From Flectonema sp. DT1601 (lineage: Eukaryota), in contig OZ025789.1 of assembly GCA_964019425.1 (NCBI GenBank), positions 248,001-312,000 on the forward strand: a stretch of 64,000 nucleotides of DNA, given 5' to 3'. The notes under the pieces were generated by a model, which saw nothing but the letters and a program-made list of their open reading frames with translations, was not told where the DNA came from and did no database searches. This document shows, piece after piece, positions 8,644 through 56,049 of this stretch (its first letter is position 1; the number at the start of each line of letters is the position of its first letter). Both the position numbers and the translations under genes were made by a program.

Positions 8644-9966
8644 TTAGAGCTGCCGGTTACCAGGCAGCCGAACAGAGGCGATGCTGTCCAAGAGGAAACT
8701 ATGTCCTATTTCAGTCACACTAAGATTAAGACTTGAAAGGTCAACAGAAGTGAGCTGTGAACAGAAATTCAAGAAATTATTTCCGATAGTAGTGAGACTA
8801 CTAAGACTACCAGAAAGGTCAAGAGAAGTGAGCTGCGAACAACGGTACAAGAAAAAACTTCCAATACTGGTGAGACTACTAAGACCAGAAAGGTCAAGAG
8901 AAGCGAGGTGTGAACACTGATACAAGAAACGATCTCCAATAGTAGAGAGACTGCTAAGACCAGAAAGGCCAAGAGAAGTGAGTTGTGAACAATCACACAA
9001 GAAACCAACTCCAATACTGGTGAGACTACTAAGACCTGAAAGGTCAAGAGAAGCGAGGTGTGAACTCTCACACAAGCAGTAATCCCCAATACTGGTGAGA
9101 CTAGTAAGACCAGAAAGGTCAAGAGAAGTGAGGTGTGAACACTCAGACAAGAAACCAACTCCAATAGTGGTGAGACTACTAAGACTTGAAAGGTCAACAG
9201 AAGTGAGTTGTGAACTCTCACACAAGCAGTAATCTTCTATAGTGGTGAGACTACTAAGACCCGAAAGGTCAAGAGAAGTGAGTTGTGAACACTCAGACAG
9301 GAAACCAACTCCAATACTGGTGAGACTACTAAGACCTGAAAGGTCAAGAGAAGCGAGGTGTGAATTCTCATACAAGAAGTAATTTCCAATAGTAGAGAGA
9401 CCACTAAGACCTGAAAGGTCAACAGAAGTGAGGTGTGAACTCTCACACAAGCAGTAATCTCCAATAGTGGTGAGACTACTAAGACCTGAAAGGTCAACAG
9501 AAGTGATTGAAGCTTCCCGCAGGAAGTCATGTGAGATGATTGTGATGTCGGAATTTGAATTGCAGAAAGAAATCCGTTTGGCAACTGAAGGCAGCGTACT
9601 TATACTAACACTGAGGCAACCATCTTCTGAGAATGTAGGGGTGTCTAAGTTTAAGTATTCCTCATTGTGGTTTCCAAGCCATTGAAGCAGCTTCTCCCGC
9701 TTCGATTCATCAACAAACCAGCATTTACCAAATAAACGAAACAACTTCCTCCGCATTTCTATCTCGCTGTCTGCACCCAATCCATGATCTGCCAGACGCT
9801 CTGTTTCGTTAAGGGTGTCACCAGCGAACGAGAGTTCAACTTCTTCCGGATCGATATCCCACTCAACAGCCGCCCCCTTCAACAAGTCGCTCACAAGTGA
9901 ATTAGTATCTAACGTGACTGACACAGCAGCGAGTTCCAATTCCGGGAATGTCACAAAAACCTGCAT
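8644..9966 (-). CDS. Ubiquitin-like domain plus tandem 23-aa leucine-rich repeats (BspA-like)
   Basis: MQVFVTF...LVSDLLK...VELSFAGDTL...LADHGL Ubl pattern, then ~11 repeats LTSLDLSGLSSLTSIGxxFLxECS (69-bp DNA period); intronless. Confidence 0.88.
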   Translation of the reverse strand: MQVFVTFPELELAAVSVTLDTNSLVSDLLKGAAVEWDIDPEEVELSFAGDTLNETERLADHGLGADSEIEMRRKLFRLFGKCWFVDESKREKLLQWLGNHNEEYLNLDTPTFSEDGCLSVSISTLPSVAKRISFCNSNSDITIISHDFLREASITSVDLSGLSSLTTIGDYCLCESSHLTSVDLSGLSGLSTIGNYFLYENSHLASLDLSGLSSLTSIGVGFLSECSQLTSLDLSGLSSLTTIEDYCLCESSQLTSVDLSSLSSLTTIGVGFLSECSHLTSLDLSGLTSLTSIGDYCLCESSHLASLDLSGLSSLTSIGVGFLCDCSQLTSLGLSGLSSLSTIGDRFLYQCSHLASLDLSGLSSLTSIGSFFLYRCSQLTSLDLSGSLSSLTTIGNNFLNFCSQLTSVDLSSLNLSVTEIGHSFLLDSIASVRLPGNRQL

Positions 9967-10493
9967 TGTTTTGAGTGATCTACTGAAAGACAAGAAGGGA
10001 TGTTAAAATGAGAGAGCGCCTGACCTGTGGCTTACGCTTGCTTCCCAATCTCGAACTAAACTTTTCCAGAGGCCTTCCCACGGGTGTTCTCGTAGATCTT
10101 GTTGCGATCGATGTTGTGAATATTCTTAAACATCTTAAACAATATTTTAAATTTGTATTTGGCAAGCAGAAGACACACAAGGAACACACAACTGTTGTTT
10201 CAACTGCGATCTCGTCAACGGTGTTGTCAATTTAGATAATTACATGTCGTGTAATCTACAGAATCAGGCATCAGGCTCCTTGAACTCTAAACATTTACGA
10301 TTCCACCTCCGCCTCTGTCATTAATGTAAGTAGTCTCATGCGAAGGAAAATATAATTTCATCAAAGAAAAAACCAACTTCATAATAAACAAATAAAAACA
10401 CCCTTCTCTTGCACGCTGGAAAGCATCAGTAAAGGGGAAAGTGTGCTACAAAACATCATCTCGTTGATTATTATTATTTTTTAACCAACGATG

Positions 10494-15292: not shown

Positions 15293-18200
15293 TCACATGG
15301 AGATTTTGTGCTGTTTTTTTTTGATTTTTTAATTTTGAAATTGAAAACATTACTAATATATTTATCCAAGATAACATCATTGGTTATCCAGCAATATTAG
15401 GGATGCGAAAGCAGCAACGCATCGTTTAGTCGTGCTTAACAAGTGTTGAGAGAGTACAATTGGTGGATTCCGTGTCTGGGGAACTGTGTGTCTCGCAAGA
15501 TTGGGGATGACGTGTACTCACAAAAGAGAGCAATGCATCGTTTAGTCGTGCTTAACAGGTGTTGGGAGAGTACAATAGTTGAAAGTGGATTCTGTGTCTG
15601 GGGAATTGTGTGTCTCGCAAGATTGGGGATGACGTGTACTCACAAAAGAGAGCAACGCATCGTTTAGTCGTGCTTAACAGGTGTTGGGAGAGTACAATAG
15701 TTGAAAGTGGATTCTGTGTCTGGGGAACTGTGTCTCGCAAGATTGGGGATGACGTGTACTCACAAAAGAGAGCAACGCATCGTTTAGTCGTGCTTAACAG
15801 GTGTTGGGAGAGTACAATAGTTGAAAGTGGATTCTGTGTCTGGGGAATTGTGTGTCTCGCAAGATTGGGGATGACGTGTACTCACAAAAGAGAGCAACGC
15901 ATCGTTTAGTCGTGCTTAACAGGTGTTGGGAGAGTACAATAGTTGAAAGTGGATTCTGTGTCTGGAACTGTGTCTCGCAAGATTGGGGATGACGTGTACT
16001 CACAAAAGAGAGCAACGCATCGTTTAGTCGTGCTTAACAGGTGTTGGGAGAGTACAATAGTTGAAAGTGGATTCTGTGTCTGGGGAACTGTGTCTCGCAA
16101 GATTGGGGATGACGTGTACTCACAAAAGAGAGCAACGCATCGTTTAGTCGTGCTTAACAGGTGTTGGGAGAGTACAATAGTTGAAAGTGGATTCTGTGTC
16201 TGGGGAACTGTGTGTCTCGCAAGATTGGGGATGACGTGTACTCACAAAAGAGAGCATCGCATCGTTTAGTCGTGCTTAACAGGTGTTGGGAGAGTACAAT
16301 AGTTGAAAGTGGATTCTGTGTCTGGGGAACTGTGTGTCTCGCAAGATTGGGGATGACGTGTACTCACAAAAGAGAGCAACGCATCGTTTAGTCGTGCTTA
16401 ACAGGTGTTGGGAGAGTACAATAGTTGAAAGTGGATTCTGTGTCTGGGGAATTGTGTGTCTCGCAAGATTGGGGATGACGTGTACTCACAAAAGAGAGCA
16501 TCGCATCGTTTAGTCGTGCTTAACAGGTGTTGGGAGAGTACAATAGTTGAAAGTGGATTCTGTGTCTGGGGAACTGTGTGTCTCGCAAGATTGGGGATGA
16601 CGTGTACTCACAAAAGAGAGCAACGCATCGTTTAGTCGTGCTTAACAGGTGTTGGGAGAGTACAATAGTTGAAAGTGGATTCTGTGTCTGGGGAACTGTG
16701 TCTCGCAAGATTGGGGATGACGTGTACTCACAAAAGAGAGCAACGCATCGTTTAGTCGTGCTTAACAGGTGTTGGGAGAGTACAATAGTTGAAAGTGGAT
16801 TCTGTGTCTGGGGAATTGTGTGTCTCGCAAGATTGGGGATGACGTGTACTCACAAAAGAGAGCAACGCATCGTTTAGTCGTGCTTAACAGGTGTTGGGAG
16901 AGTACAATAGTTGAAAGTGGATTCTGTGTCTGGGGAACTGTGTGTCTCGCAAGATTGGGGATGACGTGTACTCACAAAAGAGAGCATCGCATCGTTTAGT
17001 CGTGCTTAACAGGTGTTGGGAGAGTACAATAGTTGAAAGTGGATTCTGTGTCTGGGGAACTGTGTGTCTCGCAAGATTGGGGATGACGTGTACTCACAAA
17101 AGAGAGCAACGCATCGTTTAGTCGTGCTTAACAGGTGTTGGGAGAGTACAATAGTTGAAAGTGGATTCTGTGTCTGGGGAACTGTGTGTCTCGCAAGATT
17201 GGGGATGACGTGTACTCACAAAAGAGAGCAACGCATCGTTTAGTCGTGCTTAACAGGTGTTGGGAGAGTACAATAGTTGAAAGTGGATTCTGTGTCTGGG
17301 GAACTGTGTCTCGCAAGATTGGGGATGACGTGTACTCACAAAAGAGAGCAACGCATCGTTTAGTCGTGCTTAACAGGTGTTGGGAGAGTACAATAGTTGA
17401 AAGTGGATTCTGTGTCTGGGGAATTGTGTGTCTCGCAAGATTGGGGATGACGTGTACTCACAAAAGAGAGCAACGCATCGTTTAGTCGTGCTTAACAGGT
17501 GTTGGGAGAGTACAATAGTTGAAAGTGGATTCTGTGTCTGGGGAACTGTGTGTCTCGCAAGATTGGGGATGACGTGTACTCACAAAAGAGAGCATCGCAT
17601 CGTTTAGTCGTGCTTAACAGGTGTTGGGAGAGTACAATAGTTGAAAGTGGATTCTGTGTCTGGGGAATTGTGTGTCTCGCAAGATTGGGGATGACGTGTA
17701 CTCACAAAAGAGAGCAACGCATCGTTTAGTCGTGCTTAACAGGTGTTGGGAGAGTACAATAGTTGAAAGTGGATTCTGTGTCTGGAACTGTGTCTCGCAA
17801 GATTGGGGATGACGTGTACTCACAAAAGAGAGCAACGCATCGTTTAGTCGTGCTTAACAGGTGTTGGGAGAGTACAATAGTTGAAAGTGGATTCTGTGTC
17901 TGGGGAATTGTGTCTCGCAAGATTGGGGATGACGTGTACTCACAAAAGAGAGCAACGCATCGTTTAGTCGTGCTTAACAGGTGTTGGGAGAGTACAATAG
18001 TTGAAAGTGGATTCTGTGTCTGGAACTGTGTCTCGCAAGATTGGGGATGACGTGTACTCACAAAAGAGAGCAACGCATCGTTTAGTCGTGCTTAACAGGT
18101 GTTGGGAGAGTACAATAGTTGAAAGTGGATTCTGTGTCTGGGGAACTGTGTGTCTCGCAAGATTGGGGATGACGTGTACTCACAAAAGAGAGCAACGCAT

Positions 18201-36800: not shown

Positions 36801-39800
36801 TCCACTTCCCTCCACGGATCTGGACCCGGAGGGCTCAGAGTTGCGGGGGAATGTGGCATCTTAACCAAAGTCCTGAACAGTAAATATCAAACAGTAGATA
36901 TCAAATGAAACTGTTGGGGGAAATAAATAATTTTTAAAAGAATATAATGAACGACTACTGAAGACCTAACAAGATCGTACTTTTTGTTCCACTCATCGGT
37001 GCTACAGTCTTATCCCATTTTGACATCACGTGCAACACTTCCATTGTTGTGATTGAGTTCTTTCATATTCCGTCACCTAACTCAAAAGATAACATTGGTG
37101 TGAGTGTCAGAGCATTCCTTTCTTCATCAACATCCCATCTCCAGAATACCAAAACAGATCCAACCTTCGCTATTCACATCCATTGTTGTGATGTATAGTT
37201 GATACCAGTGGGGGGTATCGTTTTTTTTTTTATTATTCCGCTCATCACAAAGAGGGGAGGCGACAGGAGGAGGAGGAGGGGGGAGAACATTGATAAAAAA
37301 AAACCCATACCTGCTCATCAATCGACCCAAAGAAGTTACTATCAGGAAGTATAGTCAGAGAGTACGGGTTGGCGAACAATGAAAGTTTCTTTCGGAGGAG
37401 AGACGTACCCGGTGATCCAAATGCTATTGATTTAATATTTAATAAAGATCCGACTATGTTAGCAATGCCTCCGTTGGTTCCATGACCCGTTAATATAATT
37501 CTACTGTTGGGGAACCGTGTTTGAACAGTATTGATATACTTGATGATTGGAGAGAAGTAGTGATTCGATCCTTTGTTGTCCAACGCTTCCTTCAATGATG
37601 ATAACCCTGATATCCAATCTCTTTTCTGATCATCTGAAAACAGTTTTATAAAAGGAAACAAAGACGATAAAACGCTAAACAAGATACTGTCACCCCAAAT
37701 GTCTATGTCCCTCATTAAATGTTTCCCAACAAGGTTTGATCGAATAGTAATCACATGAACATCTGCTCGGTGAACGTGAACCCAATTTATGAGACCTCCT
37801 TCAGCTTGAGGATTGTTCTTCTCACCAAGTTCTTCATTAAAGAAGAAGAATAAATTCGTAGTTGATGGCAGCAGTATAATCTGAGCATTGAAAATACTAT
37901 CTCTCACTTCAGCATCCCATTTTCCAATCGAAGAAATATAACCGACATACGAAAGGTATGCCATGTCTGTAATAGTGAATCCGTTTCCTGCCTTGTCAGT
38001 AAAATCACCAAACTGCGCAGAACAAGCTGGATAATTATAAGTCTTTCGCGGTACAGTTCCCAAGTCCAGGATCGGAATTGCTTTTGGTTGCTTGTAGTAC
38101 GATGCTGAAGCCAGCACTATTCCAGCTGAGACGATGCAAACTAAAAGAAACCAAAACAACACTCTTACCGACAGCTGTTGTTGAATCTTCCTCCTTGGAT
38201 TGTTGTATCGATCTCCATAGACCTCTCCTCCATAGTACTCTGGTGTGAGTAACCAATGTCTGTTTCTCTTTTGAAGTAATTTAGATCTTGGCGATGGTGT
38301 CATAGGTGATGACGGTTCACCTGAACCATCTTGATTCCATCTAAGAAGAGCACTTAATATTTTAGATGCTGGAACCCAACTTGGTTGAGTATGAGAAGTT
38401 CTTCCTGTTTTAGTAGCAACTTTTCTAATGGCTGATTGAACTTTACTCATTGGAACCTTACCCTCATCTCTAGGGTTTGAATGCTCGAGGAGTTGAGTAC
38501 ATTTTTCAGTAACAGCTGAACTGAATACTAAAGGATCAACGTTGATCATTGGCTTTGCACGATGAGCAGCCAATAATCCTTGACTAAATATAATTAAAAT
38601 AGCGAATATTATGAGAGTCGATGTCGAGATTTTCGCCGTCGCTACGATTCCAAATATTTCAAAACCGACGACGAGTGTCAACACCAACAGAGCTACCCTA
38701 GTAGCTAAATGATCATCTCTGAGGATTTCTCTAATTACCAGAAGTAATAAAAAGGACACCAGCACTGTGACAATCCATTTCAGTGGAAATTCCACTTCAG
38801 ACGTACTAGTTAACCAATATAACATCATTATCGCTGCGTATGTCACTAAAAAAACAGCTAAATTACTCATAACCGTCTCCGCATCCAACGCAAGCTCTGC
38901 CATTAATAATTGATTCGAAGTAATCTTTTTCGGAGGTGTTCCATTTCTTTGAGATTCCGAATTATTTTTTCTATGTCGATAGAATTCACCGTATTTCGTC
39001 GCAAGTCCCAACGCCCAAGTGAAAATCATGATGAAGACATGAGTGCATAATCCAACTAAGGCACACCATTCACAGAAATATCCAGATATGGATATAATGC
39101 CTTGACCTTCAACAATTAGTTTTACCAAGGCGTAAATAAGAGGGACGGGTACCGTAAGAACAAACAGTGATATGAATATAAAAGACTTCGGGAACATCGA
39201 ATTTACAGGAAGACCCCAAACGGTTGCTCTATAAACAGGTGGAAGGACATGAAGGAGGTGTGAAGGCACAGGGTTGACAGCATCAACGTGTTCTAGATTG
39301 TTCCATAATGTCTCATCTCCGTGGAGCATTGCTCTGTTTTTGAAGTGACCGTCTCTTGGGTCGTATCGTTTTTGCTTTTCCGGATTTTTTAACCATTTTT
39401 CAGACCAATTGTCGTCTCCATACCAAATCATGTCATCAACGTAAACCCATTGATAGACTGTCTTTGCTACTGTTGTTAAAGCCGGTCCGATAAAAAAGAA
39501 TTGCGCAACCAGAATGCAAAAATACCCAACGGCATGCCAGTAGTCTGACACAACAGGAACGAATATCCTCCATGAAACCATTCCCATAAAGTGAATGAAA
39601 TAAAGATATAATTGAACTGCTCCAGCAACAAGCCAAATTGTTAGATAAAATCTAAATCCTGGTGATAGAGAAGCGAGCTCAAAACCTTTAAAACAGTTTC
39701 TAGAATACAGATTATATAGTCTTCCAATACGAGCATTTTTTCGAAGCCAATCTTCTCGAGTCGTGTGAAGCAACGCGACTGACGACGCCGCAACAGACGG

Positions 39801-40550
39801 AATCGGAACAACGATGTCATCCCCATTCTGATGAATGTGTTCTTCATCAATGTGAATACCTTTTTCATCGTGAGTTGAAGTCGAGTTCGCTGCGAACACT
39901 GTTGATTCAGCACCTGCCATACCAGTTCCAGTTCGACTGCTAATCATATTTAGTAAGGGAGCGAGTTCAATCTCTCTTCGTGGATACTTTGTTCTAATCC
40001 TTTCTAAAAGGAAAGCATACAAATCGTTCCATTTCTCGTGATGAAAAAACCTAGTTGCTAAGACTTTTGCGATGTCTTTTGTAGTTGATTCGTCCTCACT
40101 GAATAACTCTCCGAGTGATAACTTTCTTAAAAACATGTGAATCCTTCGATAATCATCACTTCTTGATGCGTGTTCTTGAGCATTACTGCTGTACATATCA
40201 AGTAGTTGTTGAACTTTGTGAGGAGGAGGTGGGAATTCCATAGCTTCTTGCATCGAACGAACAACTGCCTCGCCGTTTAAAGGATTTTCGTTACACCAGA
40301 TCGCAGCAACGTCAGTTTCAACCAATAGGTGTGGACCATATTCTTCCAGTAACTCTCTCACTCCTTGATATCCTTCCAAAAGCATTTTCTCTTCATAAAA
40401 TAAGAGAAGGATGCCTTCAGCGTCGAGGAACTTTTCCATATTACCTCCAGCAATTATTTCATTTTCGACATGAGCTTCGAATCTATCTCGTGAAAGAGCG
40501 AATTTGGAACCCGCCAATTCGTTGTATTCATCCCAGTATCCATCATCCAT
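33854..40550 (-). CDS. Multi-TM protein with C-terminal class-3 lipase-like domain and Thr-rich tail; exons 40550-37311, 34247-34153, 34082-33854
   Basis: Many TM helices; IILTGHGTNGG and AFGSPG motifs; phase-0 splice gives SIDEQ|DGSVQHIDCADEATCHNM..ACG, completing the lipase-like fold; last exon has TSTLPT repeats. Confidence 0.75.
34640..36859 (-). CDS. Long coiled-coil protein with EF-hand-like C-terminus, nested in the lipase-like gene intron
   Basis: ~739 aa intronless ORF with heptad-rich middle; C-terminal IQQAFSAF..GSMDKDHFR..LDFESF. Confidence 0.85.
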   Translation of the reverse strand: MPHSPATLSPPGPDPWREVEVLRKKVKFLQHIGTIFRQKIGTLFKEAAANGDVQMQQLDRTYRRLVAELPNSDTGPLVSPTRLVGDVAPDTAEGQYWHGKFMSATRKMKSMLEGSNSCENQLADDIRLLQEKLTQSEMHNRFLEEQLHATKNIQQTMSMGYPTTPMGLSRGAGGLSPPIPLTAPTPPPPMIPSVFPSAKETLHPQLLDPQECDTATTLVIRSMQQDNMQLSHQLNEALERVHTVDTLQQEVSTLQKQNSLLRNRLMKMKESQKQSKIESSTTAVEMQTNIHTLLGSLNDANAEIASKEAQMCEIATSKGSLLQDMQLLQAATNHYKERIAELERENLARLKTEQLKQQETNQESKVLYEQVSEKNQTVTDMSDQLGNLNNQVEKQYKTLKENTYHIELLNIEKMTLQEKVHHMDLLMSERKHFGNILGEVQSRLGGAVDDLKIMSTTREVADRVKELNNKVGGLEILESQLRQKDDLLAMKDDEVLKLQNSIKSLEQNVDSISSVFLKLPKSLEEMEQIIIERDTFKEAMVPEAAAEAHEDIAIKLIELESKRKSNPTPEQALADGGVAGLAAAAMQVLSNHECDSDDELLEVHQSSSKERSASTLGRMYESIYGNIQRVSLPPPPAYSFEQDSPPPGESQVGHFIQNQSPHEIIAPPVHQLEGNQYRPSVQDIQQAFSAFEHQGSMDKDHFRTCVLVLGLNVSKPAEEFLSFQQELDFESFKAAVDLC

Positions 40551-40911
40551 ATTTTTTTTTTTTTTCAAAAAAAAAAAAAAAAAAGGTCCCTATTATTGAA
40601 GTAGGATATTAACTTTGTTTGTGTCACGAAAAGCTAAATAACAAAATTAAAAAAGAAACTCAAGTAATAAATCAATACCACTGTTGAGGGGGAGAAGAAC
40701 CTTAAATCACTAAAAACTAACAATAAACACAACTATTTTTCATTTTCAATTTTTTTTTTTTGTTTTTTGGTACAAGACAATACAGCCATAGCAAGTGTGA
40801 GAACAAATTGTTTGGAAAGAGAAAGGAGGGGAAAAGAAGGAGAGGGGGAAAAAATTAAATTGAAAACGACAGCGTTCAAAATTATTTTTTTAAATAACAA
40901 AACATAACTTC

Positions 40912-42804
40912 TTACGACCATCGAGTTCGTTGAATTGAAGAAGGAGACGCAGACTGCTGTCGATAAGTTCTCTGAGGTGAGGGATGTGGTTGTTGGTATT
41001 GAGCAGCAGGTTGTTGTCTATATTGCACAGGTTGGTTTTGTTGGTACTGAACAGGCTGTTGTTGGTATTGAAGAGGCTGCTGTTGGTATTGAACATGCTG
41101 CTGTTGATACTGAGGACTACTGTATTGCGGCGCAGATACCTCCTCCGATTGATGTCTCGGTCTCAGTGGACTGGTATGCGCGACAGTCTGCGATCGTGGG
41201 TTCCATACTCCTGCTGTTCCCTTTAATGTTGGTGTCGCTGAACACGCAAACCCTAAGTCCTGAACTGTACCTGTCGTGTTCATTTCACTTAGTAAAGCCT
41301 CATCTCTTAGAGTTCTCAGGCGAAGCATTTTAACAAATGCCTCGTTCACATCGTCTTCGGTGACATCAGCGTGGAGTGGGATGCTGAGCATTTGCTGAGC
41401 TAAGTTGTTAATCTTCCGATCTTTAGGATTATGAGGTGACTGTTGGTTTGGATAATTCTGTTCTATGAAAGTTTGTTGCTTTCTCTCTCTGTCGAGACTG
41501 ATGGATTTGAGATATGAAATTTCTGTGTCAGTTCGAGACGCTGCCTCCGTCAGTCTGTTTAGACGAGTTTGAACATCGAGTCCACCAACAGCACGCAGAT
41601 AAGAAGTACCTGAGGGTATATCTCTGTGAGGTGACTTGTCTTCCTGGTAGCTATAACCTTGTGGTTGGTACTGTTGGCGTTGTTGTTGTTGCTGCTGTTG
41701 CTGCTGCTGTTGTTGTTGCTGCTGCACAACAGCAGATCTCGGGCTTGCTTTCGAGCTTTTATTTCTATTAGAATTCCCTGTGTTACTAAATAGTGACCCA
41801 ACAGCCTCATTAGTTAACTCTCCAAGGCGGTCTTGTAGTTGGTGGAGTTCCTCTGCTTTAGCTCGCAGAGTCATTCGTTCTCTCATGAACTCCCTGGCGT
41901 GAGCTTCCTTTTCAGCTTCTCGTTCGTCTCTCATTCGATCGATCTCATCAAGAAGTGACGCCCAACCAACACCTGACTTCAATGGAGGTAGAGACTTTGC
42001 TTTCGCTGCTACCGCTGCTGTTGCTGCTGCAGAGCTTCTGCGAGGGATTGGATCTTCTTTTGATACCAACGGTGGTTTTGATACCTCAACTTCAACAGAA
42101 GTATGACTGAAGTTATTAACTGAAGGTTGTGACATGTCTCTGGGGATTTCAGGAGACTTCACTGGCTCAACAATAGGTTTTACACTCACAGGCGCTGGTG
42201 TAGGAGGTGCCACTTGTACTTTCACTGGTGGTGCTACTTCTACAGCCTTAACTGGTGCAGGGGGTGGAGGCTCTACTTTTGGAACAACAACAGGAGGGGG
42301 GGGAGCAACCGCAACAGGAGGTGAGGTATCCTGAACTGGTTTAGGTTCCTCTGGTTTGGTACTACTTTTCTCCTCAACAGGCTGTGGAGGAGCAGGAGGA
42401 GGAGTTGGTGTTGGAGTTGGGGCTGGAGGTGGAGCTTTTTTTGCAGGCGCTTTTGGAGGTACCTTCGGAGCCTCTGAAGACTTTTTCGCTGCCGGTTTCT
42501 TGACAGCTCCACCAGGAGTGTTCGGAGGTGCCCCTTTCTTCTTCACATAAACATAAAACCCGTTCTTAACGCCATAGAATTCAAGTGTCTTAGTCCTCTC
42601 AAGCTTTACTCCCAGTTCCAGTACTGTTGGATCTTTCTCTTTGGCAGCGGCTTTCTGGTCGACGACTGTCCAGACGTCGAAAGTTTTCATTTTTAGTTTG
42701 TCTTTAACTTTTGCAGAGACATCAGCATACTTACCATTACCTATCACTGACCCAGCTTGTTTGTCTGCGAATGTTGTGGTATCAGAGAGGAACTTTATTA
42801 GCAT
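40912..42804 (-). CDS. Protein with N-terminal ubiquitin-like domain, Pro-rich linker, coiled coil and Gln-rich repeats
   Basis: Long ORF; KTLEFYGVKNGFYVYV Ubl-like end; start inferred at MLIKF after an A tract. Confidence 0.8.
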   Translation of the reverse strand: MLIKFLSDTTTFADKQAGSVIGNGKYADVSAKVKDKLKMKTFDVWTVVDQKAAAKEKDPTVLELGVKLERTKTLEFYGVKNGFYVYVKKKGAPPNTPGGAVKKPAAKKSSEAPKVPPKAPAKKAPPPAPTPTPTPPPAPPQPVEEKSSTKPEEPKPVQDTSPPVAVAPPPPVVVPKVEPPPPAPVKAVEVAPPVKVQVAPPTPAPVSVKPIVEPVKSPEIPRDMSQPSVNNFSHTSVEVEVSKPPLVSKEDPIPRRSSAAATAAVAAKAKSLPPLKSGVGWASLLDEIDRMRDEREAEKEAHAREFMRERMTLRAKAEELHQLQDRLGELTNEAVGSLFSNTGNSNRNKSSKASPRSAVVQQQQQQQQQQQQQQQRQQYQPQGYSYQEDKSPHRDIPSGTSYLRAVGGLDVQTRLNRLTEAASRTDTEISYLKSISLDRERKQQTFIEQNYPNQQSPHNPKDRKINNLAQQMLSIPLHADVTEDDVNEAFVKMLRLRTLRDEALLSEMNTTGTVQDLGFACSATPTLKGTAGVWNPRSQTVAHTSPLRPRHQSEEVSAPQYSSPQYQQQHVQYQQQPLQYQQQPVQYQQNQPVQYRQQPAAQYQQPHPSPQRTYRQQSASPSSIQRTRWS

Positions 42805-43043
42805 TTTTGGTTTTTTTTTTTTTTTTGTGAAAACACTATTGTAGAAGAATGATCGATACAAAAACAACACATCGGATGGCTTCAGTTGCATACAGATTGA
42901 ACCCTTGTTTTGAAATATAATATTGGTAGCTCCATACCACCACCTAGTAGTCGTTAATAATCCAACAAAAAAAACAAATCATAACTTTTAAACTGAACAA
43001 ATATAAAGAATGAAGGTTGATTTTTTTCTTCACACCTCTTCTT

Positions 43044-46000
43044 TCATTGTGATTGACTTTTATTAGCCTCTTCTCTTATGAGAATGTCAGATATTTTATT
43101 CATTAATTCAGAGCATTGAGCAGCAGCGTCATTCGCTGCATCGATCGATCTTTCTATTTTAGTTACCTCTTGAAGCTCTGATTGCAATCTGTTCAAGTTC
43201 AAATTGCTCTGGGTTAATCTTTTCTCAATAGTTTCAAAATTCACTTTTATGTCCCTCATCGTCTGTATTGTTGTGTACGTACCAGTTAGAAGTTGGCTAT
43301 TACTTTGCTTTGTAACAGTTTGAAATCCCGCAAGCAAATCAATCAGCTCTGAATGATCAATTTGTAATTCAGGAGGAACAGCAACCTTCTTATGTTCACC
43401 AGCTAATTTTCCTTGTATAATGGGATCAAGTTTTTCTATTGAATTTAACTTACTCATGATATTACCATCAGCAGAGTCTTCTGTGGGGTTAGGGGCGCTG
43501 TTTACCGTCATCATACGTTCCTGTGTGGTGATTATTTACAAGTTTCATTTTCCAATAATTGTATAACAGTGTACACATAGTAAGAGTGCAGCTACGTGAA
43601 GTCAGTACAGATCTTGGTTTGCGAATTGATAAATTAATCATTGTGATCATACGCCAGGTAAATATGATGTCATCATACAAAAACAGAATGGCGGGCACTG
43701 TTCATGTCTACACTTCGAGAAGCAGCAAACGTCACACGCTAATGAAGTTGAGGACTTCGAGGAGGACAAGAGAGGAGTCAGTACAGATCTTGGTTTGCGA
43801 ATTGATAAGTTAATCATTATGATCATACGCCAGGTAAATATGATGTCATCATACGAAAACAGAATGGTGGGCACTGTTCATGTCTACACTTCGAGAAGCA
43901 GCAAACGTCACACGCTAATGAAGTTGAGGACTTCGAGGAGGACAAGAGAGGAGTCAGTACAGATCTTGGTTTGCGAATTGATAAATTAATCATTGTGATC
44001 ATACGCCAGGTAAATATGATGTCATCATACAAAAACAGAATGGCGGGCACTGTTCATGTCTACACTTCGAGAAGCAGCAAACGTCACACGCTAATGAAGT
44101 TGAGGACTTCGAGGAGGACAAGAGAGGAGTCAGTACAGATCTTGGTTTGCGAATTGATAAGTTAATCATTGTGATCATACGCCAGGTAAATATGATGTCA
44201 TCATACGAAAACAGAATGGTGGGCACTGTTCATGTCTACACTTCGAGAAGCAGTAAACGTCACACGCTAATGAAGTTGAGGACTTCGAGGAGGACAAGAG
44301 AGGAGTCAGTACAGATCTTGGTTTGCGAATTGATAAGTTAATCATTATGATCATACGCCAGGTAAATATGATGTCATCATACGAAAACAGAATGGCGGGC
44401 ACTGTTCATGTCTACACTTCGAGAAGCAGCAAACGTCACACGCTAGTGAAGTTGAGGACTTCGAGGAGGGCAAGAGAGGAGTCAGTACAGATCTTGGTTT
44501 GCGAATTGATAAATTAATCATTGTGATCATACGCCAGGTAAATATGATGTCATCATACGAAAACAGAATGGCAGGCACTGTTCATGTCTACACTTCGAGA
44601 AGCAGCAAACGCCACACGCTAGTGAAGTTGAGGACTTCGAGGAGGGCAAGAGAGGAGTCAGTACAGATCTTGGTTTGCGAATTGATAAATTAATCATTGT
44701 GATCATACGCCAGGTAAATATGATGTCATCATACAAAAACAGAATGGCGGGCACTGTTCATGTCTACACTTCGAGAAGCAGCAAACGTCACACGCTAATG
44801 AAGTTGAGGACTTCGAGGAGGACAAGAGAGGAGTCAGTACAGATCTTGGTTTGCGAATTGATAAATTAATCATTGTGATCATACGCCAGGTAAATATGAT
44901 GTCATTATACGAAAACAGAATGGTGGGCACTGTTCATGTCTACACTTCGAGAAGCAGCAAACGTCACACGCTAATGAAGTTGAGGACTTCGAGGAGGACA
45001 AGAGAGGAGTCAGTACAGATCTTGGTTTGCGAATTGATAAATTAATCATTGTGATCATACGCCAGGTAAATATGATGTCATCATACGAAAACAGAATGGC
45101 GGGCACTGTTCATGTCTACACTTCGAGAAGCAGCAAACGTCACACGCTAATGAAGTTGAGGACTTCGAGGAGGACAAGAGAGGAGTCAGTACAGATCTTG
45201 GTTTGCGAATTGATAAATTAATCATTGTGATCATACGCCAGGTAAATATGATGTCATCATACGAAAACAGAATGGTGGGCACTGTTCATGTCTACACTTC
45301 GAGAAGCAGTAAACGTCACACGCTAATGAAGTTGAGGACTTCGAGGAGGGCAAGAGAGGAGTCAGTACAGATCTTGGTTTGCGAATTGATAAGTTAATCA
45401 TTGTGATCATACGCCAGGTAAATATGATGTCATCATACGAAAACAGAATGGTGGGCACTGTTCATGTCTACACTTCGAGAAGCAGCAAACGTCACACGCT
45501 AATGAAGTTGAGGACTTCGAGGAGGACAAGAGAGGAGTCAGTACAGATCTTGGTTTGCGAATTGATAAATTAATCATTGTGATCATACGCCAGGTAAATA
45601 TGATGTCATCATACGAAAACAGAATGGTGGGCACTGTTCATGTCTACACTTCGAGAAGCAGTAAACGTCACACGCTAATGAAGTTGAGGACTTCGAGGAG
45701 GACAAGAGAGGAGTCAGTACAGATCTTGGTTTGCGAATTGATAAATTAATCATTGTGATCATACGCCAGGTAAATATGATGTCATCATACGAAAACAGAA
45801 TGGCGGGCACTGTTCATGTCTACACTTCGAGAAGCAGCAAACGTCACACGCTAATGAAGTTGAGGACTTCGAGGAGGACAAGAGAGGAGTCAGTACAGAT
45901 CTTGGTTTGCGAATTGATAAGTTAATCATTATGATCATACGCCAGGTAAATATGATGTCATCATACGAAAACAGAATGGTGGGCACTGTTCATGTCTACA

Positions 46001-48186
46001 CTTCGAGAAGCAGCAAACGTCACACGCTAATGAAGTTGAGGACTTCGAGGAGGACAAGAGAGGAGTCAGTACAGATCTTGGTTTGCGAATTGATAAGTTA
46101 ATCATTATGATCATACGCCAGGTAAATATGATGTCATCATACGAAAACAGAATGGTGGGCACTGTTCATGTCTACACTTCGAGAAGCAGTAAACGTCACA
46201 CGCTAATGAAGTTGAGGACTTCGAGGAGGGCAAGAGAGGAGTCAGTACAGATCTTGGTTTGCGAATTGATAAGTTAATCATTGTGATCATACGCCAGGTA
46301 AATATGATGTCATCATACGAAAACAGAATGGTGGGCACTGTTCATGTCTACACTTCGAGAAGCAGCAAACGTCACACGCTAATGAAGTTGAGGACTTCGA
46401 GGAGGACAAGAGAGGAGTCAGTACAGATCTTGGTTTGCGAATTGATAAATTAATCATTGTGATCATACGCCAGGTAAATATGATGTCATCATACGAAAAC
46501 AGAATGGCGGGCACTGTTCATGTCTACACTTCGAGAAGCAGCAAACGTCACACGCTAATGAAGTTGAGGACTTCGAGGAGGACAAGAGAGGAGTCAGTAC
46601 AGATCTTGGTTTGCGAATTGATAAATTAATCATTGTGATCATACGCCAGGTAAATATGATGTCATTATACGAAAACAGAATGGTGGGCACTGTTCATGTC
46701 TACACTTCGAGAAGCAGTAAACGTCACACGCTAATGAAGTTGAGGACTTCGAGGAGGGCAAGAGAGGAGTCAGTACAGATCTTGGTTTGCGAATTGATAA
46801 GTTAATCATTGTGATCATACGCCAGGTAAATATGATGTCATCATACGAAAACAGAATGGTGGGCACTGTTCATGTCTACACTTCGAGAAGCAGTAAACGT
46901 CACACGCTAATGAAGTTGAGGACTTCGAGGAGGACAAGAGAGGAGTCAGTACAGATCTTGGTTTGCGAATTGATAAATTAATCATTGTGATCATACGCCA
47001 GGTAAATATGATGTCATCATACAAAAACAGAATGGCGGGCACTGTTCATGTCTACACTTCGAGAAGCAGCAAACGTCACACGCTAATGAAGTTGAGGACT
47101 TCGAGGAGGACAAGAGAGGAGTCAGTACAGATCTTGGTTTGCGAATTGATAAATTAATCATTGTGATCATACGCCAGGTAAATATGATGTCATCATACGA
47201 AAACAGAATGGTGGGCACTGTTCATGTCTACACTTCGAGAAGCAGTAAACGTCACACGCTAATGAAGTTGAGGACTTCGAGGAGGACAAGAGAGGAGTCA
47301 GTACAGATCTTGGTTTGCGAATTGATAAGTTAATCATTGTGATCATACGCCAGGTAAATATGATGTCATCATACGAAAACAGAATGGCGGGCACTGTTCA
47401 TGTCTACACTTCGAGAAGCAGTAAACGTCACACGCTAATGAAGTTGAGGACTTCGAGGAGGGCAAGAGAGGAGTCAGTACAGATCTTGGTTTGCGAATTG
47501 ATAAGTTAATCATTGTGATCATACGCCAGGTAAATATGATGTCATCATACGAAAACAGAATGGTGGGCACTGTTCATGTCTACACTTCGAGAAGCAGCAA
47601 ACGTCACACGCTAATGAAGTTGAGGACTTCGAGGAGGACAAGAGAGGAGTCAGTACAGATCTTGGTTTGCGAATTGATAAATTAATCATTGTGATCATAC
47701 GCCAGGTAAATATGATGTCATTATACGAAAACAGAATGGTGGGCACTGTTCATGTCTACACTTCGAGAAGCAGTAAACGTCACACGCTAATGAAGTTGAG
47801 GACTTCGAGGAGGGCAAGAGAGGAGTCAGTACAGATCTTGGTTTGCGAATTGATAAGTTAATCATTGTGATCATACGCCAGGTAAATATGATGTCATCAT
47901 ACGAAAACAGAATGGTGGGCACTGTTCATGTCTACACTTCGAGAAGCAGCAAACGTCACACGCTAATGAAGTTGAGGACTTCGAGGAGGACAAGAGAGGA
48001 GTCAGTACAGATCTTGGTTTGCGAATTGATAAATTAATCATTGTGATCATACGCCAGGTAAATATGATGTCATCATACACAAAAACGCTCAAAGAAGAAT
48101 AAAAACGATACCTGTTCCTCTCTTAGCAACGCTTGGTAGTCGGCTGTAGACTCCGCATTGGACTGTTTACTCTGCTTGTCTCCCAT
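43044..48186 (-). CDS. BORCS5: BORC subunit 5 (myrlysin)-like; exons 48186-48112 and 43520-43044, with a 4591-nt intron holding the C/D array
   Basis: MGDKQS myristoylation motif; CAG|GTATCG..CACAG|GAA phase-0 join; KLNSIEKLDPIIQGKL resembles BORCS5 KLQEIPTFQPLLKGLL (recalled), followed by coiled coil. Confidence 0.72.
43601..48078. repeat. Tandem array, 176-bp period: 26 snoRNA segments and 25 spacers
   Basis: GTCAGTACAG recurs from 43601 to 48001 every 176 bp; substitutions only. Confidence 0.98.
48002..48076 (-). ncRNA. Box C/D snoRNA (representative copy of 26)
   Basis: ATGATGA (C), ATGA (D'), ATGATTA (C'), CTGA (D), 75 nt; D guide ACCAAGATCTGT complementary to LSU GCAGAUCUUGGU. Confidence 0.88.
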
Positions 48187-48421: not shown

Positions 48422-48856
48422 TTATGCGGACACAACGCAGGCACCACCAGCAGCCTTCAACTTCTTCTCAGCGATTCTGGAGATGAAACGAGCCTTCACG
48501 ATGAGTGGCTTGGTAACGAAACCCTTACCCAACAACTTGAATACTCCCTTCGAGGTCAGGTCAACGACTGGTACCTTCTTTCCGGTAGCGGCCTTGGTGT
48601 CAGCCTCGGAAACCATCGCGGAGAGCTGGTTAACGTTGCAAGTTGGCTTCACCATTGGGTTCTTCTTGTAGTGGAAGTGTCTCATACCAACCTTACCAAA
48701 GTATCCCGGATGGTACTTGTCAAACCAGATACGGTGATGGTGCTGACCTCCGGCGTTACCTCTTCCGGAAGGATGCTTTCTGTGCTTTCCTACACGACCG
48801 TGACCCGCACTGACGTGTCCTCTCTTCTTACGGTTCTTGCGGAGTGCGGTGGTCAT
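48422..48856 (-). CDS. RPL27A: 60S ribosomal protein L27a (uL15)
   Basis: [42 protein letters not shown]. Confidence 0.97.
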
Positions 48857-49335
48857 GTTGAAGAGGAAACTGTGGAAGGGGGGTGAAACATTGACAATTT
48901 AAAAACAGTAACATTTGGTATTAAAAACAAAATTAATATCAAGTTAATCAAGGAAACGTAAAAGAGAAAATTATATATTTTATCCAATTGACCAGAAGAC
49001 GAACTTACACTTAAACAAAAGTTAAAATAAAGTAATTATATTCGATCGAGGGGACAAGAATTTCTAACTTAAGACTTTTGTTAAATTGGTGGAAGAGAAT
49101 GTTTGTTTGTTTTTTGTATTCCCCGCTGCTTAGGATTTCTTTTGTTGGTAATGTGCATGTTAAGGTAAGCGAGTGTTTTTTTTTGCCCTAGTCAACACTT
49201 TCGGGTATTAGTCTTTTTTTTTTTTTTTTTTTTTTTTTTTCGCAAGCAGATCGACTTTTCGTCGGTATCTCTGACCTCTTTTTAGGCTTTTTCTCTATAC
49301 CTTTTTTTTTTTTTGTACCTATAAACCCATTGTTC

Positions 49336-52480: not shown

Positions 52481-52915
52481 TTATGCGGACACAACGCAGG
52501 CACCACCAGCAGCCTTCAACTTCTTCTCAGCGATTCTGGAGATGAAACGAGCCTTCACGATGAGTGGCTTGGTAACGAAACCCTTACCCAACAACTTGAA
52601 TACTCCCTTCGAGGTCAGGTCAACGACTGGTACCTTCTTTCCGGTAGCGGCCTTGGTGTCAGCCTCGGAAACCATCGCGGAGAGCTGGTTAACGTTGCAA
52701 GTTGGCTTCACCATTGGGTTCTTCTTGTAGTGGAAGTGTCTCATACCAACCTTACCAAAGTATCCCGGATGGTACTTGTCAAACCAGATACGGTGATGGT
52801 GCTGACCTCCGGCGTTACCTCTTCCGGAAGGATGCTTTCTGTGCTTTCCTACACGACCGTGACCAGCACTGACGTGTCCTCTCTTCTTACGGTTCTTGCG
52901 GAGTGCGGTGGTCAT
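52481..52915 (-). CDS. RPL27A: 60S ribosomal protein L27a (uL15)
   Basis: Protein identical to 48422-48856. Confidence 0.97.
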
Positions 52916-53433
52916 GTTGTGATGATATCTAAGTGGAAGAAGGGAAGATAAAGTACAACATCATTAATAACATTATTATTATCTACATCGATTGATGTAC
53001 TTTAGTGAACTGCTCACATTTGAACCCTCTCTCGTGGCCGCTAGTCAGATGCAATAAATCTCTAACCGATTAGAGTCACTCCCACGGAACGGAAGGACAC
53101 ACCTCGGTGTTGTTTTTGCACGATGCAAGCAGAACGTCTCTCCCTTCATCAAACTGTGTCAAAGGCAGAGAATGTTTTGTTAGTATATCTGCAGGAAAAG
53201 TAAATAATTAAAAAAAGAAAAAAGAACGTTCAGAACTGAAGTAATATCACCTCGTGTCGTAACTAACAACAACTACGTGGGGTGGTGGAGACGGGTCGAA
53301 CACTTGAGTAACACGTTTCAATTTGATTGCTCTGTTAGAAACTAACCTGGAGCTGTTTTCTTTGTCTTCTTTTTTATAATTGAGGGCCGTGTGCCCAACA
53401 TGACTTGATCGAAATTTTAATTGCCGCGGGTGC

Positions 53434-53868
53434 TTATGCGGACACAACGCAGGCACCACCAGCAGCCTTCAACTTCTTCTCAGCGATTCTGGAGATGAAA
53501 CGAGCCTTCACGATGAGTGGCTTGGTAACGAAACCCTTACCCAACAACTTGAATACTCCCTTCGAGGTCAGGTCAACGACTGGTACCTTCTTTCCGGTAG
53601 CGGCCTTGGTGTCAGCCTCGGAAACCATCGCGGAGAGCTGGTTAACGTTGCAAGTTGGCTTCACCATTGGGTTCTTCTTGTAGTGGAAGTGTCTCATACC
53701 AACCTTACCAAAGTATCCCGGATGGTACTTGTCAAACCAGATACGGTGATGGTGCTGACCTCCGGCGTTACCTCTTCCGGAAGGATGCTTTCTGTGCTTT
53801 CCTACACGACCGTGACCAGCACTGACGTGTCCTCTCTTCTTACGGTTCTTGCGGAGTGCGGTGGTCAT
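53434..53868 (-). CDS. RPL27A: 60S ribosomal protein L27a (uL15)
   Basis: Protein identical to the other two copies. Confidence 0.97.
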
Positions 53869-56049
53869 TTTGTGATGGTCTGAAAGGACGGGAGGGAAGT
53901 AATAATAAAGTTTCCTAATTAGGAAGTTGAAATATCAAACGAGAATCCATCAGCCAACAACAAACATTACTAATCTGGTAAAAAATAATTATAATAACTC
54001 CACGAGAAGCACTGAATTACTATTTCTACACACAGTACTTTGTTCACAACGTAACGTAAGAAATCATCATACAAATATTCTTCTTCTTTCTTTTTTGTTT
54101 TGTTTTTTTTTTTTGTGGTTTTTTTTTTTTTTTTTTTCCTTCTTCACATCTCTTCTCCAAAACTACACTATCACGAGGGGGTATAATTATTTTGAACTTG
54201 TAATTACCAACTGCAATGTATCAAATCATAACGATAGCGTAACATACGTTAAAAGACACAATGACTAAGGTGTTCACAGGGGGGTTGACTGTTTGAAATC
54301 AATGCCTACAATATTAATATATTGTATCAAGGCTAACTATTATAAACATTTACCACGGGGAGGGGCATTTTTTTTAGGGAAAAAAAAAATAAGCAAATTA
54401 GGGGGTTAAGACATAAAAAAAGAAGAAGAAGGAAAATTCTCCGTTGTTCCCCCGAACAACTTTTATTTTTTCTAGCCACTCAAAAAGATTTTCTAAAATA
54501 CTTTTGTACCAAGGTGGATTGCTGAGGATATTGAGGTGGCAGTAATTCTGTCCCTTCTTTCTTTCCTGTCACCGGGACAAAAAACTTCGTCCCGAGTTTT
54601 TTTTTTTACTTTCCATTCAACACACACATCTACGAATTCATGGTAATGAGTTGATTGAAAGCCAATAACACAAACAGTCAAGTGATAACTTGAGAATTGA
54701 TAATGTAATCTGCTTTCTGAACTTCCACTGAGTACGAGTTGAATACTCCGATAACCAGGCTGCGGTCTGTAACTCGCAAGTGTATTGACCTTGAAGTTCA
54801 ATTTGAATGACGTGTAAGAGGACAACAGTTCTCCGTCATTTCGTTTCCAATTTAGTGAGGCAGAATGAAAAAAAAAAAAAAGAGTTGTTCAGAAACAGCG
54901 AATATTTTTTTTTTTTAAGTGCAGGCAACGGAGGAAAAGAAAAAAGTTAAGGTGACAGGCAACGGAGAGGAAAAAAAATGCTTTTTTTTGATGTAGGCAA
55001 CGGAGAAAGTCCAAAAAAAAAAAAAAAAAAAAAAATGAAAAAATGATCAGCAGCGAAGATGACAAAAAAGCAGGTGCAAAGGCAAAAATAAGTATAAAAG
55101 GCTAGACGTGGATTACATAAGGTTACAGTGCGACCAAGTAACCGAAAGATTAAAAAAAAAAAACTTGTTCCAAATCTGAAAAGCAGTGAAGATATGATAT
55201 TTTCCGTTACCCAGATCACTAGTGTACAAGAAAAGCAGAATCTGACTTTTCCCTGAAGTGCTTCCTCTTCGTGATTTTCCTGACGATGTAGACAAAAATA
55301 TTGAACGAATTTAGTTAAAACGCGCACAGCCCCATGGACAATCTTATAAGTATTTTTAGAATTTTCATTCCGAAACTGTCATTTTAAGGCCACTAACCAA
55401 GTTAGTTAAACACAGACTCACAATGTTACTTGTGGACAAACCAATACTGAAGGACAAGAAAACGAATTGAAAACTCTCTTTTCTTTTTTTTTTTTTCTTT
55501 CTCTGTTCTCCCCCCCCCCATCCATAATTATTCCCAAACACGTATTTATATCAACAAAGAACCCGAATATTCGGATCTTCTTTTTTTTTTTTTTTTTTTT
55601 TGTTCCTTCGTTTTTGTTTTTTTTTTTTTCCTCGCTTAACTCTCTTAGACTGCAATGGTTATTCCGTATTCTGAAGTTCTCTGTTAACCATGTGCTGTTG
55701 TTTAGCCATTTTTTTTATAGGTGTTTTTGGACAGTAGAACACCTCTCAAATAACAAGAAAAGAATCTCAATTTTTTTTTTTTATTTTTTTTTTTATTTTG
55801 GGAATATAATAAACGGAAAATGCCTACAACGGATAGAATGAAGATAGAAAAAAAAAAAAATACAGTGCTCAAGTTCGATTCCGATCGGTGTCATTTTTTT
55901 TTTTCTTTTTTTTTTTTCTGACAATCTGGGATTTTCGGATAGCAGTATGTTTTAAAAATTAGATCGAAACAGAGAATGATTAGCATTGGTCAAGGATGAC
56001 TCTCATTAATTGAGAAAATATCACCTTTTTTTTTTTTTTTTTTTTTTGA

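What the first reader, a model, noticed from the sequence alone, without database searches (positions are those of the whole stretch)
15293..48186. Recurrent design: small host genes whose giant introns are snoRNA amplifiers
Two unrelated arrays of different snoRNA classes within 33 kb share one layout: short host gene, 4.6-6.7 kb intron (most other introns here are ~45-200 nt), one RNA repeated with 55-100 nt spacers. Inference: this may be a genome-wide dosage strategy, many intronic 'satellites' in this lineage may be snoRNA arrays, and endonucleolytic cutting of spacers would be needed.
Basis: inference. Interest (0 to 1): 0.8.

Follow-up and report, generated by a model that had tools for sequence, protein, structure and literature searches.

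The report
Diplonemid introns packed with snoRNA copies
Two small genes of a marine single-celled flagellate each carry one intron swollen about 25- to 35-fold by 26 or 54 near-identical head-to-tail copies of one short unit that looks like a ribosome-modifying guide RNA, likely a way to make more of that RNA, though no RNA product has yet been seen.

Summary
The genome is diplonemid. Array 1 (54 units of 116-122 nt) fills a 6,713-nt GT-AG intron of a 120-aa gene; array 2 (26 copies, 176-nt period) fills a 4,591-nt intron of a 183-aa BORCS5-like gene. Transcript-derived proteins of other diplonemids run across both junctions. Without the repeats the introns are 181 and 191 nt, like two ordinary introns here (76, 206 nt). 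Array 2 is a strong box C/D candidate: it starts at box C, ends at box D, has a 12-pair match to large-subunit rRNA (84 of 200,000 shuffles), and a Trypanosoma brucei snoRNA has the same guide in the same register. Array 1 fits the single-hairpin H/ACA-like form (3 of 400 shuffles) but has no significant target. No RNA was detected in the one thin run available, no genome was held, and adaptive dosage is untested: 'genome-wide strategy' rests on two arrays. Intronic snoRNA clusters and repeated euglenozoan clusters are known; single-RNA arrays this large inside one intron are a new variant. This scan noted similar arrays earlier in Euglena-like genomes (unchecked notes).

The parts
22220..22444 (-). 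Host 1 exon 1 (coding, 75 aa) of a 120-aa membrane-type protein conserved in diplonemids, distantly like trypanosome POMP6
22144..22219 (-). Host 1 intron 1, 76 nt, GT-AG
22024..22143 (-). Host 1 exon 2 (40 aa)
15311..22023 (-). Host 1 intron 2, 6,713 nt, GT-AG; 181 nt with the repeats removed
   Evidence: four orthologues continue with the exon-3 residues
15436..21967 (-). Array 1: 54 units of 116-122 nt, each a 66-nt single-hairpin H/ACA-like candidate plus a 50-56-nt unstructured spacer
21782..21847 (-). One H/ACA-like candidate: stem I, 6+5-nt pocket, stem II, AGA (and overlapping ACA) box
15385..15435 (-). Diverged terminal hairpin: same 5' half, shorter perfect upper stem, no AGA box; end approximate
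15293..15310 (-). Host 1 exon 3 (5 aa and stop)
48112..48186 (-). Host 2 exon 1 (25 aa) of a 183-aa BORCS5-like protein
43521..48111 (-). Host 2 intron, 4,591 nt, GT-AG; 191 nt with the repeats removed
43602..48076 (-). Array 2: 26 box C/D candidates of 75 nt with 25 spacers of about 100 nt; begins at box C and ends at box D
48002..48076 (-). First C/D copy; D guide predicted to direct 2'-O-methylation of a G in large-subunit rRNA; possible second target for the D' guide
43044..43520 (-). Host 2 exon 2 (158 aa and stop)

Best explanation
Each giant intron is an ordinary-sized intron filled by tandem copies of one short unit that is likely a snoRNA gene (box C/D in array 2, single-hairpin H/ACA-like in array 1), and the copies are predicted to be transcribed with the host gene, cut apart in the spacers and trimmed to single guide RNAs, which would raise their output many-fold. 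Shown: the arrays, the introns (by orthologous proteins), the boxes, the fold and the rRNA complementarity of array 2. Inferred: origin by unequal crossover between two neighbouring copies of a snoRNA in a roughly 190-nt intron, then homogenisation; release from the spliced intron or the nascent transcript by an unidentified endonuclease; retention because copy number is the main lever on output where genes are co-transcribed in long units and the hosts are ordinary housekeeping genes, not ribosomal-protein genes. By part: array 2 is a C/D gene about 0.9; array 1 is H/ACA-like about 0.75; single RNAs are made about 0.7; copy number is selected about 0.45; it is genome-wide about 0.3.
For: Introns: a Flectonema neradi transcript-derived protein (184 aa) aligns to both exons of host 2, and one of 120 aa to exons 1 and 2 of host 1 and ends in the exon-3 residues; three more diplonemid proteins keep the same two residues after the junction. 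Removing repeats leaves 181 and 191 nt. Array 2: canonical C box in 23 of 26 copies, D box and both guides identical in 26 of 26; array ends fall within about 3 nt of box C and box D (rough chance 0.001); 12 consecutive Watson-Crick pairs with a site conserved in at least 8 of 17 long rDNA loci, matched by 84 of 200,000 shuffled guides; 11 of these pairs are also in the Rfam eukaryotic consensus; T. brucei TB10Cs2''C3 has the same 11-nt guide with the same base five places before its D box (PMC3273796 supplement). Array 1: the unconstrained fold gives stem-pocket-stem with AGA one base after the stem; 3 of 400 dinucleotide shuffles meet the same model, 0 of 400 at -15 kcal/mol or better, and the opposite strand does not; the array starts at the first base of stem I; pocket and box are intact in 54 of 54; both ends resemble T. 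brucei TB10Cs1H2 (by eye). All 14 frames of 280 aa or more lie on the same strand as both RNAs. In T. brucei more precursor goes with more snoRNA and more modification (PMC4855143, passages).
Against: No RNA evidence: the single run found covers neither host exon nor unit (thin contigs, so this is no evidence of absence). Rfam gives nothing at gathering score for either unit, and only E 1.3-9.8 hits to C/D and H/ACA families. Array 1 has no significant target (286 and 178 of 300 shuffles do as well), a mismatch in stem I, and 12 nt from pocket to AGA against the published 13-16 (14 nt to the overlapping ACA); its fold z-score is only -1.9, the opposite strand's -2.2; its two variant sites both break upper-stem pairs (7 of 54 copies). 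The H/ACA model was set after seeing the unit. In array 2, 3 of 26 copies have a damaged C box, and variable sites are not clearly fewer in the RNA (3 in 75 nt) than in the spacer (7 in 100 nt). The D' target is only suggestive (44 of 54 loci; 381 of 5,000 shuffles). The rDNA loci were picked with the guide's own pattern and were not assigned to diplonemids. D. papillatum forms tandem arrays of many unrelated sequences (PMC10161547).
Confidence: 0.55

Rival explanations
1. Real snoRNA genes, neutral amplification: two neighbouring snoRNA copies seeded unequal crossover in a repeat-prone genome; one or a few copies do the work and the number is not selected.
For: D. papillatum has unexpressed gene-side tandem arrays, a 164-copy array of mitochondrial DNA and 163 U2 copies (PMC10161547). 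Damaged C boxes in 3 of 26 copies and stem-breaking variants in 7 of 54 have spread; no clear deficit of variation in the C/D RNA against its spacer.
Against: Both long non-coding arrays in 64 kb (2 of 2) are snoRNA-like and start at the RNA's 5' end; guides and pockets are invariant; a 4.6-6.7 kb intron in a gene of under 600 coding bases should carry a cost (inference).
Confidence: 0.25
2. Only array 2 is a snoRNA array; array 1 is a hairpin-containing minisatellite or another kind of RNA, so the design is not recurrent.
For: No significant pocket target; weak fold z-score; no Rfam match; terminal copy lacks the box.
Against: Model met by 3 of 400 shuffles and only on the host's strand; array boundary at stem I; the diverged terminal copy keeps both stems with different sequence; ends like a T. 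brucei H/ACA-like RNA.
Confidence: 0.12
3. The introns are not cut into single RNAs but persist as long RNAs protected at both ends by snoRNPs and strung with 26-54 protein-binding modules.
For: Exonucleases alone would stop at the first and last copy (inference from the mechanism in PMC11028025); the spacers have no strong stem for an RNase III-type cut (-0.6 kcal/mol and z 0.26).
Against: Trypanosome clusters are processed to single snoRNAs from polycistronic precursors by unidentified machinery (PMC2613932, PMC4855143), so such cutting likely exists in this lineage.
Confidence: 0.04
4. The copy numbers are inflated by assembly; the real introns hold only a few copies.
For: 98% identical units; no DNA reads or genome available to check.
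Against: 10 unit types among 54 and 17 among 25, in irregular order with shared variants, which a simple assembly loop would not give.
Confidence: 0.04

Closest known systems
Trypanosomatid snoRNA clusters (T. brucei, Leishmania); PMC2613932 passages, PMC3273796 supplement parts 4 and 7, PMC4855143 passages, PMC13487219 passages
   Same: Single-hairpin AGA-box RNAs and C/D RNAs in polycistronic, often repeated clusters with short spacers, freed by unknown machinery; TB10Cs2''C3 shares array 2's D guide and register.
   Different: As described in those passages the clusters are mostly mixtures of different RNAs on trans-spliced, polyadenylated transcripts and repeated several times; here one RNA is repeated 26 or 54 times inside a cis-spliced intron of a protein-coding gene.
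Intronic snoRNA clusters (category defined in PMC11028025, introduction part 1 read; the rice, Drosophila and Chlamydomonas cases are recalled, not read)
   Same: Several snoRNAs in one intron, dependent on host transcription.
   Different: From recall, those hold a handful of diverged or different RNAs, often in translation-related hosts; here dozens of 98% identical copies in BORCS5-like and POMP6-like hosts.
Mammalian SNORD113-116 and rat Bsr tandem repeats (PMC11028025, passages)
   Same: Large, homogenised tandem snoRNA families that gain and lose copies by non-allelic recombination.
   Different: Those are orphan C/D RNAs in repeated introns of non-coding hosts; here all copies share one intron of a coding gene, and array 2 has an rRNA match.
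Euglena gracilis multi-copy, linked modification-guide snoRNA genes (PMC2784804 passages; Moore and Russell 2012 and Moore et al. 2018 not held, recalled only)
   Same: Sister lineage with tandem, multi-copy guide-RNA genes.
   Different: Whether published Euglena arrays are intronic I could not check; two unchecked notes of this scan describe 20-26-copy multi-gene cassettes in an intron of Euglena-like genomes, whereas the units here hold one RNA.

Membership tests
Box C/D methylation-guide snoRNA (array 2) | Box C near the 5' end and box D near the 3' end | tested here: met
   Canonical C in 23 of 26, D in 26 of 26, 75 nt end to end
Box C/D methylation-guide snoRNA (array 2) | 10 or more pairs with rRNA just before box D, covering the fifth position | tested here: met
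   12 Watson-Crick pairs; 84 of 200,000 shuffles; proxy rDNA loci chosen by this pattern, not the organism's own rRNA
Box C/D methylation-guide snoRNA (array 2) | Second guide before D' | tested here: inconclusive
   10-pair site with 1-2 wobbles in 44 of 54 covering loci; 381 of 5,000 shuffles
Box C/D methylation-guide snoRNA (array 2) | Terminal stem closing the kink-turn | tested here: not met
   No stem joining the ends in the predicted fold; by eye several T. brucei C/D RNAs also lack one, so it is not treated as defining in this lineage
Box C/D methylation-guide snoRNA (array 2) | Stable RNA bound by fibrillarin, target methylated | not testable with these tools
   No small-RNA or modification data
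Euglenozoan single-hairpin H/ACA-like RNA (array 1) | 57-91 nt single hairpin, A before stem I, AGA 1-3 nt after it (PMC2613932) | tested here: met
   66 nt, AGA after one unpaired base; 3 of 400 shuffles
Euglenozoan single-hairpin H/ACA-like RNA (array 1) | Stem I usually perfect, 5-8 pairs; 13-16 nt from target U to box | tested here: inconclusive
   5 pairs with one mismatch; 12 nt to AGA, 13 if the bottom pair of stem II opens, 14 to the overlapping ACA
Euglenozoan single-hairpin H/ACA-like RNA (array 1) | Bipartite pairing around a target uridine | tested here: inconclusive
   Two candidate uridines about 28 nt apart in the 3' part of large-subunit rRNA (3+7 and 3+4 pairs), not above shuffles
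Euglenozoan single-hairpin H/ACA-like RNA (array 1) | Cbf5-dependent stable RNA | not testable with these tools
   No data
Intronic snoRNA cluster | Several snoRNA genes in one intron, sense to the host | tested here: met
   Introns supported by orthologous proteins; splicing in this organism itself not observed
Genome-wide dosage system | Intronic arrays enriched for snoRNAs across the genome; output scales with copies | not testable with these tools
   No genome held

The most novel reading that the evidence does not exclude
Diplonemids, and perhaps euglenids, routinely set the amount of each rRNA-modification guide by amplifying single snoRNA genes tens of times inside introns of ordinary genes, so that much of their intronic 'satellite' DNA is a hidden, copy-number-tuned snoRNA repertoire cut by the same unidentified spacer nuclease that processes trypanosome clusters.
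Probability: 0.3. Interest if true: 0.78.

Novelty: new variant of a known kind. Interest (0 to 1): 0.56.

Why it matters
I found no description of diplonemid snoRNA genes: a search for 'diplonemid' with 'snoRNA' gave 8 papers (listing seen for all, passages read for two), and the D. papillatum genome paper and a 2025 diplonemid intron survey have no occurrence of 'snoRNA' in their main text (none in the 7 supplements of the former). The library misses most subscription journals. If expressed, these arrays would show that repeat masking hides functional RNA genes in this abundant marine group, that long introns missed by short-read assemblies can be gene arrays, and that copy number can stand in for transcriptional control of a non-coding RNA. 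Twenty-five to 54 near-identical spacers would also be an unusually clean substrate for finding the nuclease that frees euglenozoan snoRNAs from their precursors, which the papers read call unknown.

Tried and rejected
No whole genome is held and the scan has no notes on other windows of it or on look-alikes of the array 1 unit, so the genome-wide claim was not tested. Rfam at gathering score found only U6. One sequencing run was found, a marine metatranscriptome with a small share; it has two contigs 99% alike on the L27a gene but nothing on host exons or the single units included in the stretches laid, which says nothing either way. Host 1 has no relative in viral contigs. Motif scans gave 3 viral and 3 bacterial matches, about what chance gives, not examined further. 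A C/D scan of the window outside the arrays gave four places with 10-11-nt matches and degenerate boxes, one inside a coding frame; treated as chance. A plus-strand reading of array 1 was rejected: antisense to the host and failing the model with either box. A two-hairpin H/ACA was rejected: the spacer does not fold. Spacers do not match the intron flanks (p 0.39-0.73), so a recent simple duplication of the intron interior is unsupported. No T. brucei counterpart of array 1's pocket or of the D' guide was found by motif look-ups in PMC3273796 and PMC4855143 supplements (figures are not held as text). The diplonemid rDNA paper's supplements gave no sequence. My recollection that the predicted G is a known methylated position in Leishmania was not confirmed (0 occurrences in PMC13487219 main text). 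P0128 is an unrelated repeat protein. Pfam names neither host above its cut-off.
Full report
Lineage and context. The best relatives of a window enzyme are from Diplonema japonicum and D. ambulator (57 and 54% identity), and both host proteins have Flectonema neradi relatives at 72-76%, so the genome is diplonemid. I did not assign a species. All 14 reading frames of 280 aa or more lie on the minus strand, as expected for the co-transcribed gene groups reported for D. papillatum (PMC10161547, abstract and passages). No whole genome is held.

The arrays are real. Tandem Repeats Finder reports three long arrays among 107 rows: 8727-9506, which lies inside a leucine-rich-repeat frame, 15413-21967 (period 122) and 43600-48078 (period 176), the last two 98% homogeneous. 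Array 1 has 54 full units in 10 types and array 2 has 25 full periods in 17 types, in irregular order, which argues against a simple assembly loop but does not replace read evidence.

The introns are real. Host 2 has a 75-nt first exon, a 4,591-nt GT-AG intron and a second exon, giving 183 aa. A 184-aa transcript-derived Flectonema protein aligns to both exons and runs across the junction; the feature search places it with BORCS5 (score 0.93, ten hits, recognition below the tool's threshold), while Pfam gives nothing above cut-off. Host 1 has three exons, a 76-nt intron and a 6,713-nt intron, giving 120 aa. Four diplonemid proteins align and continue past the giant-intron junction with the same first residue as exon 3 after the conserved lysine, one nearly through to the stop; a Trypanosoma cruzi protein named POMP6 is a distant hit (E 8e-6). 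Splicing in this organism itself was not observed. With the repeats removed the introns measure 181 and 191 nt, close to the two ordinary introns I could define (76 nt; 206 nt in an aminotransferase gene) and above the medians of 37-107 nt given for six diplonemids, whose authors warn that long introns may be missed (PMC12621601, passages).

Array 2 is a box C/D candidate of high confidence. Each copy runs 75 nt from a C box to a D box, sense to the host; 23 of 26 have the canonical C box and 26 of 26 have identical guides and D box. The array begins at the first C box, about 35 nt into the intron, and ends at the last D box, about 80 nt before the acceptor: 26 RNAs, 25 spacers. A metagenome scan with the guide's complement returned 68 loci sharing one context; one was confirmed as eukaryotic large-subunit rRNA (E 2e-76), the others were taken as such from the shared context, and none was assigned to diplonemids. 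Because the loci were chosen by that pattern the 68 of 68 is circular, but 11 of the 12 Watson-Crick pairs also stand in the Rfam consensus, and 84 of 200,000 shuffled guides did as well against words conserved in at least 8 of the 17 long loci. The fifth base before box D faces a G. T. brucei TB10Cs2''C3, a sequenced small RNA, has the same 11-nt guide in the same register (PMC3273796 supplement parts 4 and 7 of 9). The D' guide can pair with a second conserved site about 290-350 nt downstream (44 of 54 covering loci), but 381 of 5,000 shuffles do as well. Rfam itself gives only E 1.3-9.8 hits, all 7 to C/D families on the right strand.

Array 1 is an H/ACA-like candidate of moderate confidence. 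The first 66 nt of the unit fold unaided into a lower stem, a 6+5-nt internal loop and an upper stem, followed after one base by AGA, with an A before the stem, as in the trypanosomatid consensus (PMC2613932, passages). Three of 400 dinucleotide shuffles met a model written after seeing the unit, none at -15 kcal/mol, and the opposite strand failed. The array starts at the first base of the lower stem, 56 nt into the intron, and ends in a diverged copy that keeps both stems with different sequence but lacks the box. Against it: a mismatch in the lower stem, 12 nt to AGA instead of 13-16 (14 to an overlapping ACA), a fold z-score of -1.9, two variant sites that both break pairs, and no target above chance. 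Seven of 54 units differ from the commonest type in the first 60 nt against 28 of 54 in the rest, but these variants are few events shared by descent.

Mechanism. Shown: two sense-strand arrays in true introns with the features above. Inferred: each intron once held one or two snoRNA copies; unequal crossover and conversion expanded and homogenised a unit of RNA plus spacer, as the n+1 RNAs and n spacers and the diverged last copy suggest. Exonuclease trimming of a debranched intron, the usual route for intronic snoRNAs (PMC11028025, introduction part 1), would stop at the first and last copy, so monomers need cuts in the spacers. The spacers show no strong structure, are pyrimidine-rich (0.59 and 0.64; spacer 1 has only 9% G) and do not resemble each other, so an RNase III-type stem signal is unlikely; trypanosome clusters are processed by machinery the papers call unknown. 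Dosage is plausible because the hosts are not ribosomal-protein genes and transcription is likely uniform along the gene group, and because in T. brucei precursor level tracks snoRNA and modification level (PMC4855143). It is not shown, and neutral expansion in a repeat-prone lineage remains a serious rival.

Expression could not be tested. One run was found. It holds two contigs 99% alike on a neighbouring L27a gene and nothing on the hosts or units; contigs at this depth cannot show absence or RNA ends.

Comparison and verdict. Repeated polycistronic snoRNA clusters are known in trypanosomatids and Euglena, intronic clusters are a recognised category, and large homogenised snoRNA repeats are known in mammals. 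The combination here, one RNA repeated 26 or 54 times in a single cis-spliced intron of a small coding gene, twice within 33 kb and in both snoRNA classes, did not turn up in my searches (mostly listings seen; key Euglena, Drosophila and plant papers are not held, and figure-only supplements could bear on targets). Two unchecked notes of this scan describe similar intronic arrays in Euglena-like genomes, which hints at a wider euglenozoan habit and lowers uniqueness. Verdict: observation confirmed, interpretation partly supported, new variant of a known kind, interest 0.56.

Noticed in passing
window 48422-48898, 52481-52960, 53434-53934 (-): Three genes encoding the same ribosomal protein L27a sequence within 5.5 kb, another case of copy-number gain beside array 2.
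   Followed up: partly
window 55931-56031 (+): A U6 snRNA gene on the strand opposite to all long frames, just above Rfam's cut-off and six bases shorter than the consensus in its internal stem-loop region.
   Followed up: no
window 15311, 22144, 43521, 5742 (acceptor ends, -): All four defined introns end in A- and C-rich stretches without a polypyrimidine tract; CA-rich intron motifs are reported for other diplonemids.
   Followed up: partly
window 47976-48000 and each spacer of array 2 (-): Directly after box D each spacer begins with a pyrimidine tract of about 18 nt followed by AG, which could act as a trans-splice acceptor or a protein-binding site during processing.
   Followed up: no
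window 48051-48066 and each copy (-): The D' guide is complementary to a sequence that reads like a 5' splice site and, from recall, resembles the 5' end of U1 snRNA; probably chance.
   Followed up: no
window 5742-5947 (-): The 206-nt aminotransferase intron is the size of the collapsed giant introns; the C/D scan found nothing in it and it was not scanned for hairpin RNAs.
   Followed up: partly
window 31169-32374 (-): Farnesyl diphosphate synthase whose named relatives, apart from diplonemids, are mostly dinoflagellate and other algal proteins; possible gene transfer, no tree built.
   Followed up: no
window 8644-10002 (-): Ubiquitin-like domain followed by a BspA-type leucine-rich repeat, source of the 75-nt coding tandem array.
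   Followed up: partly
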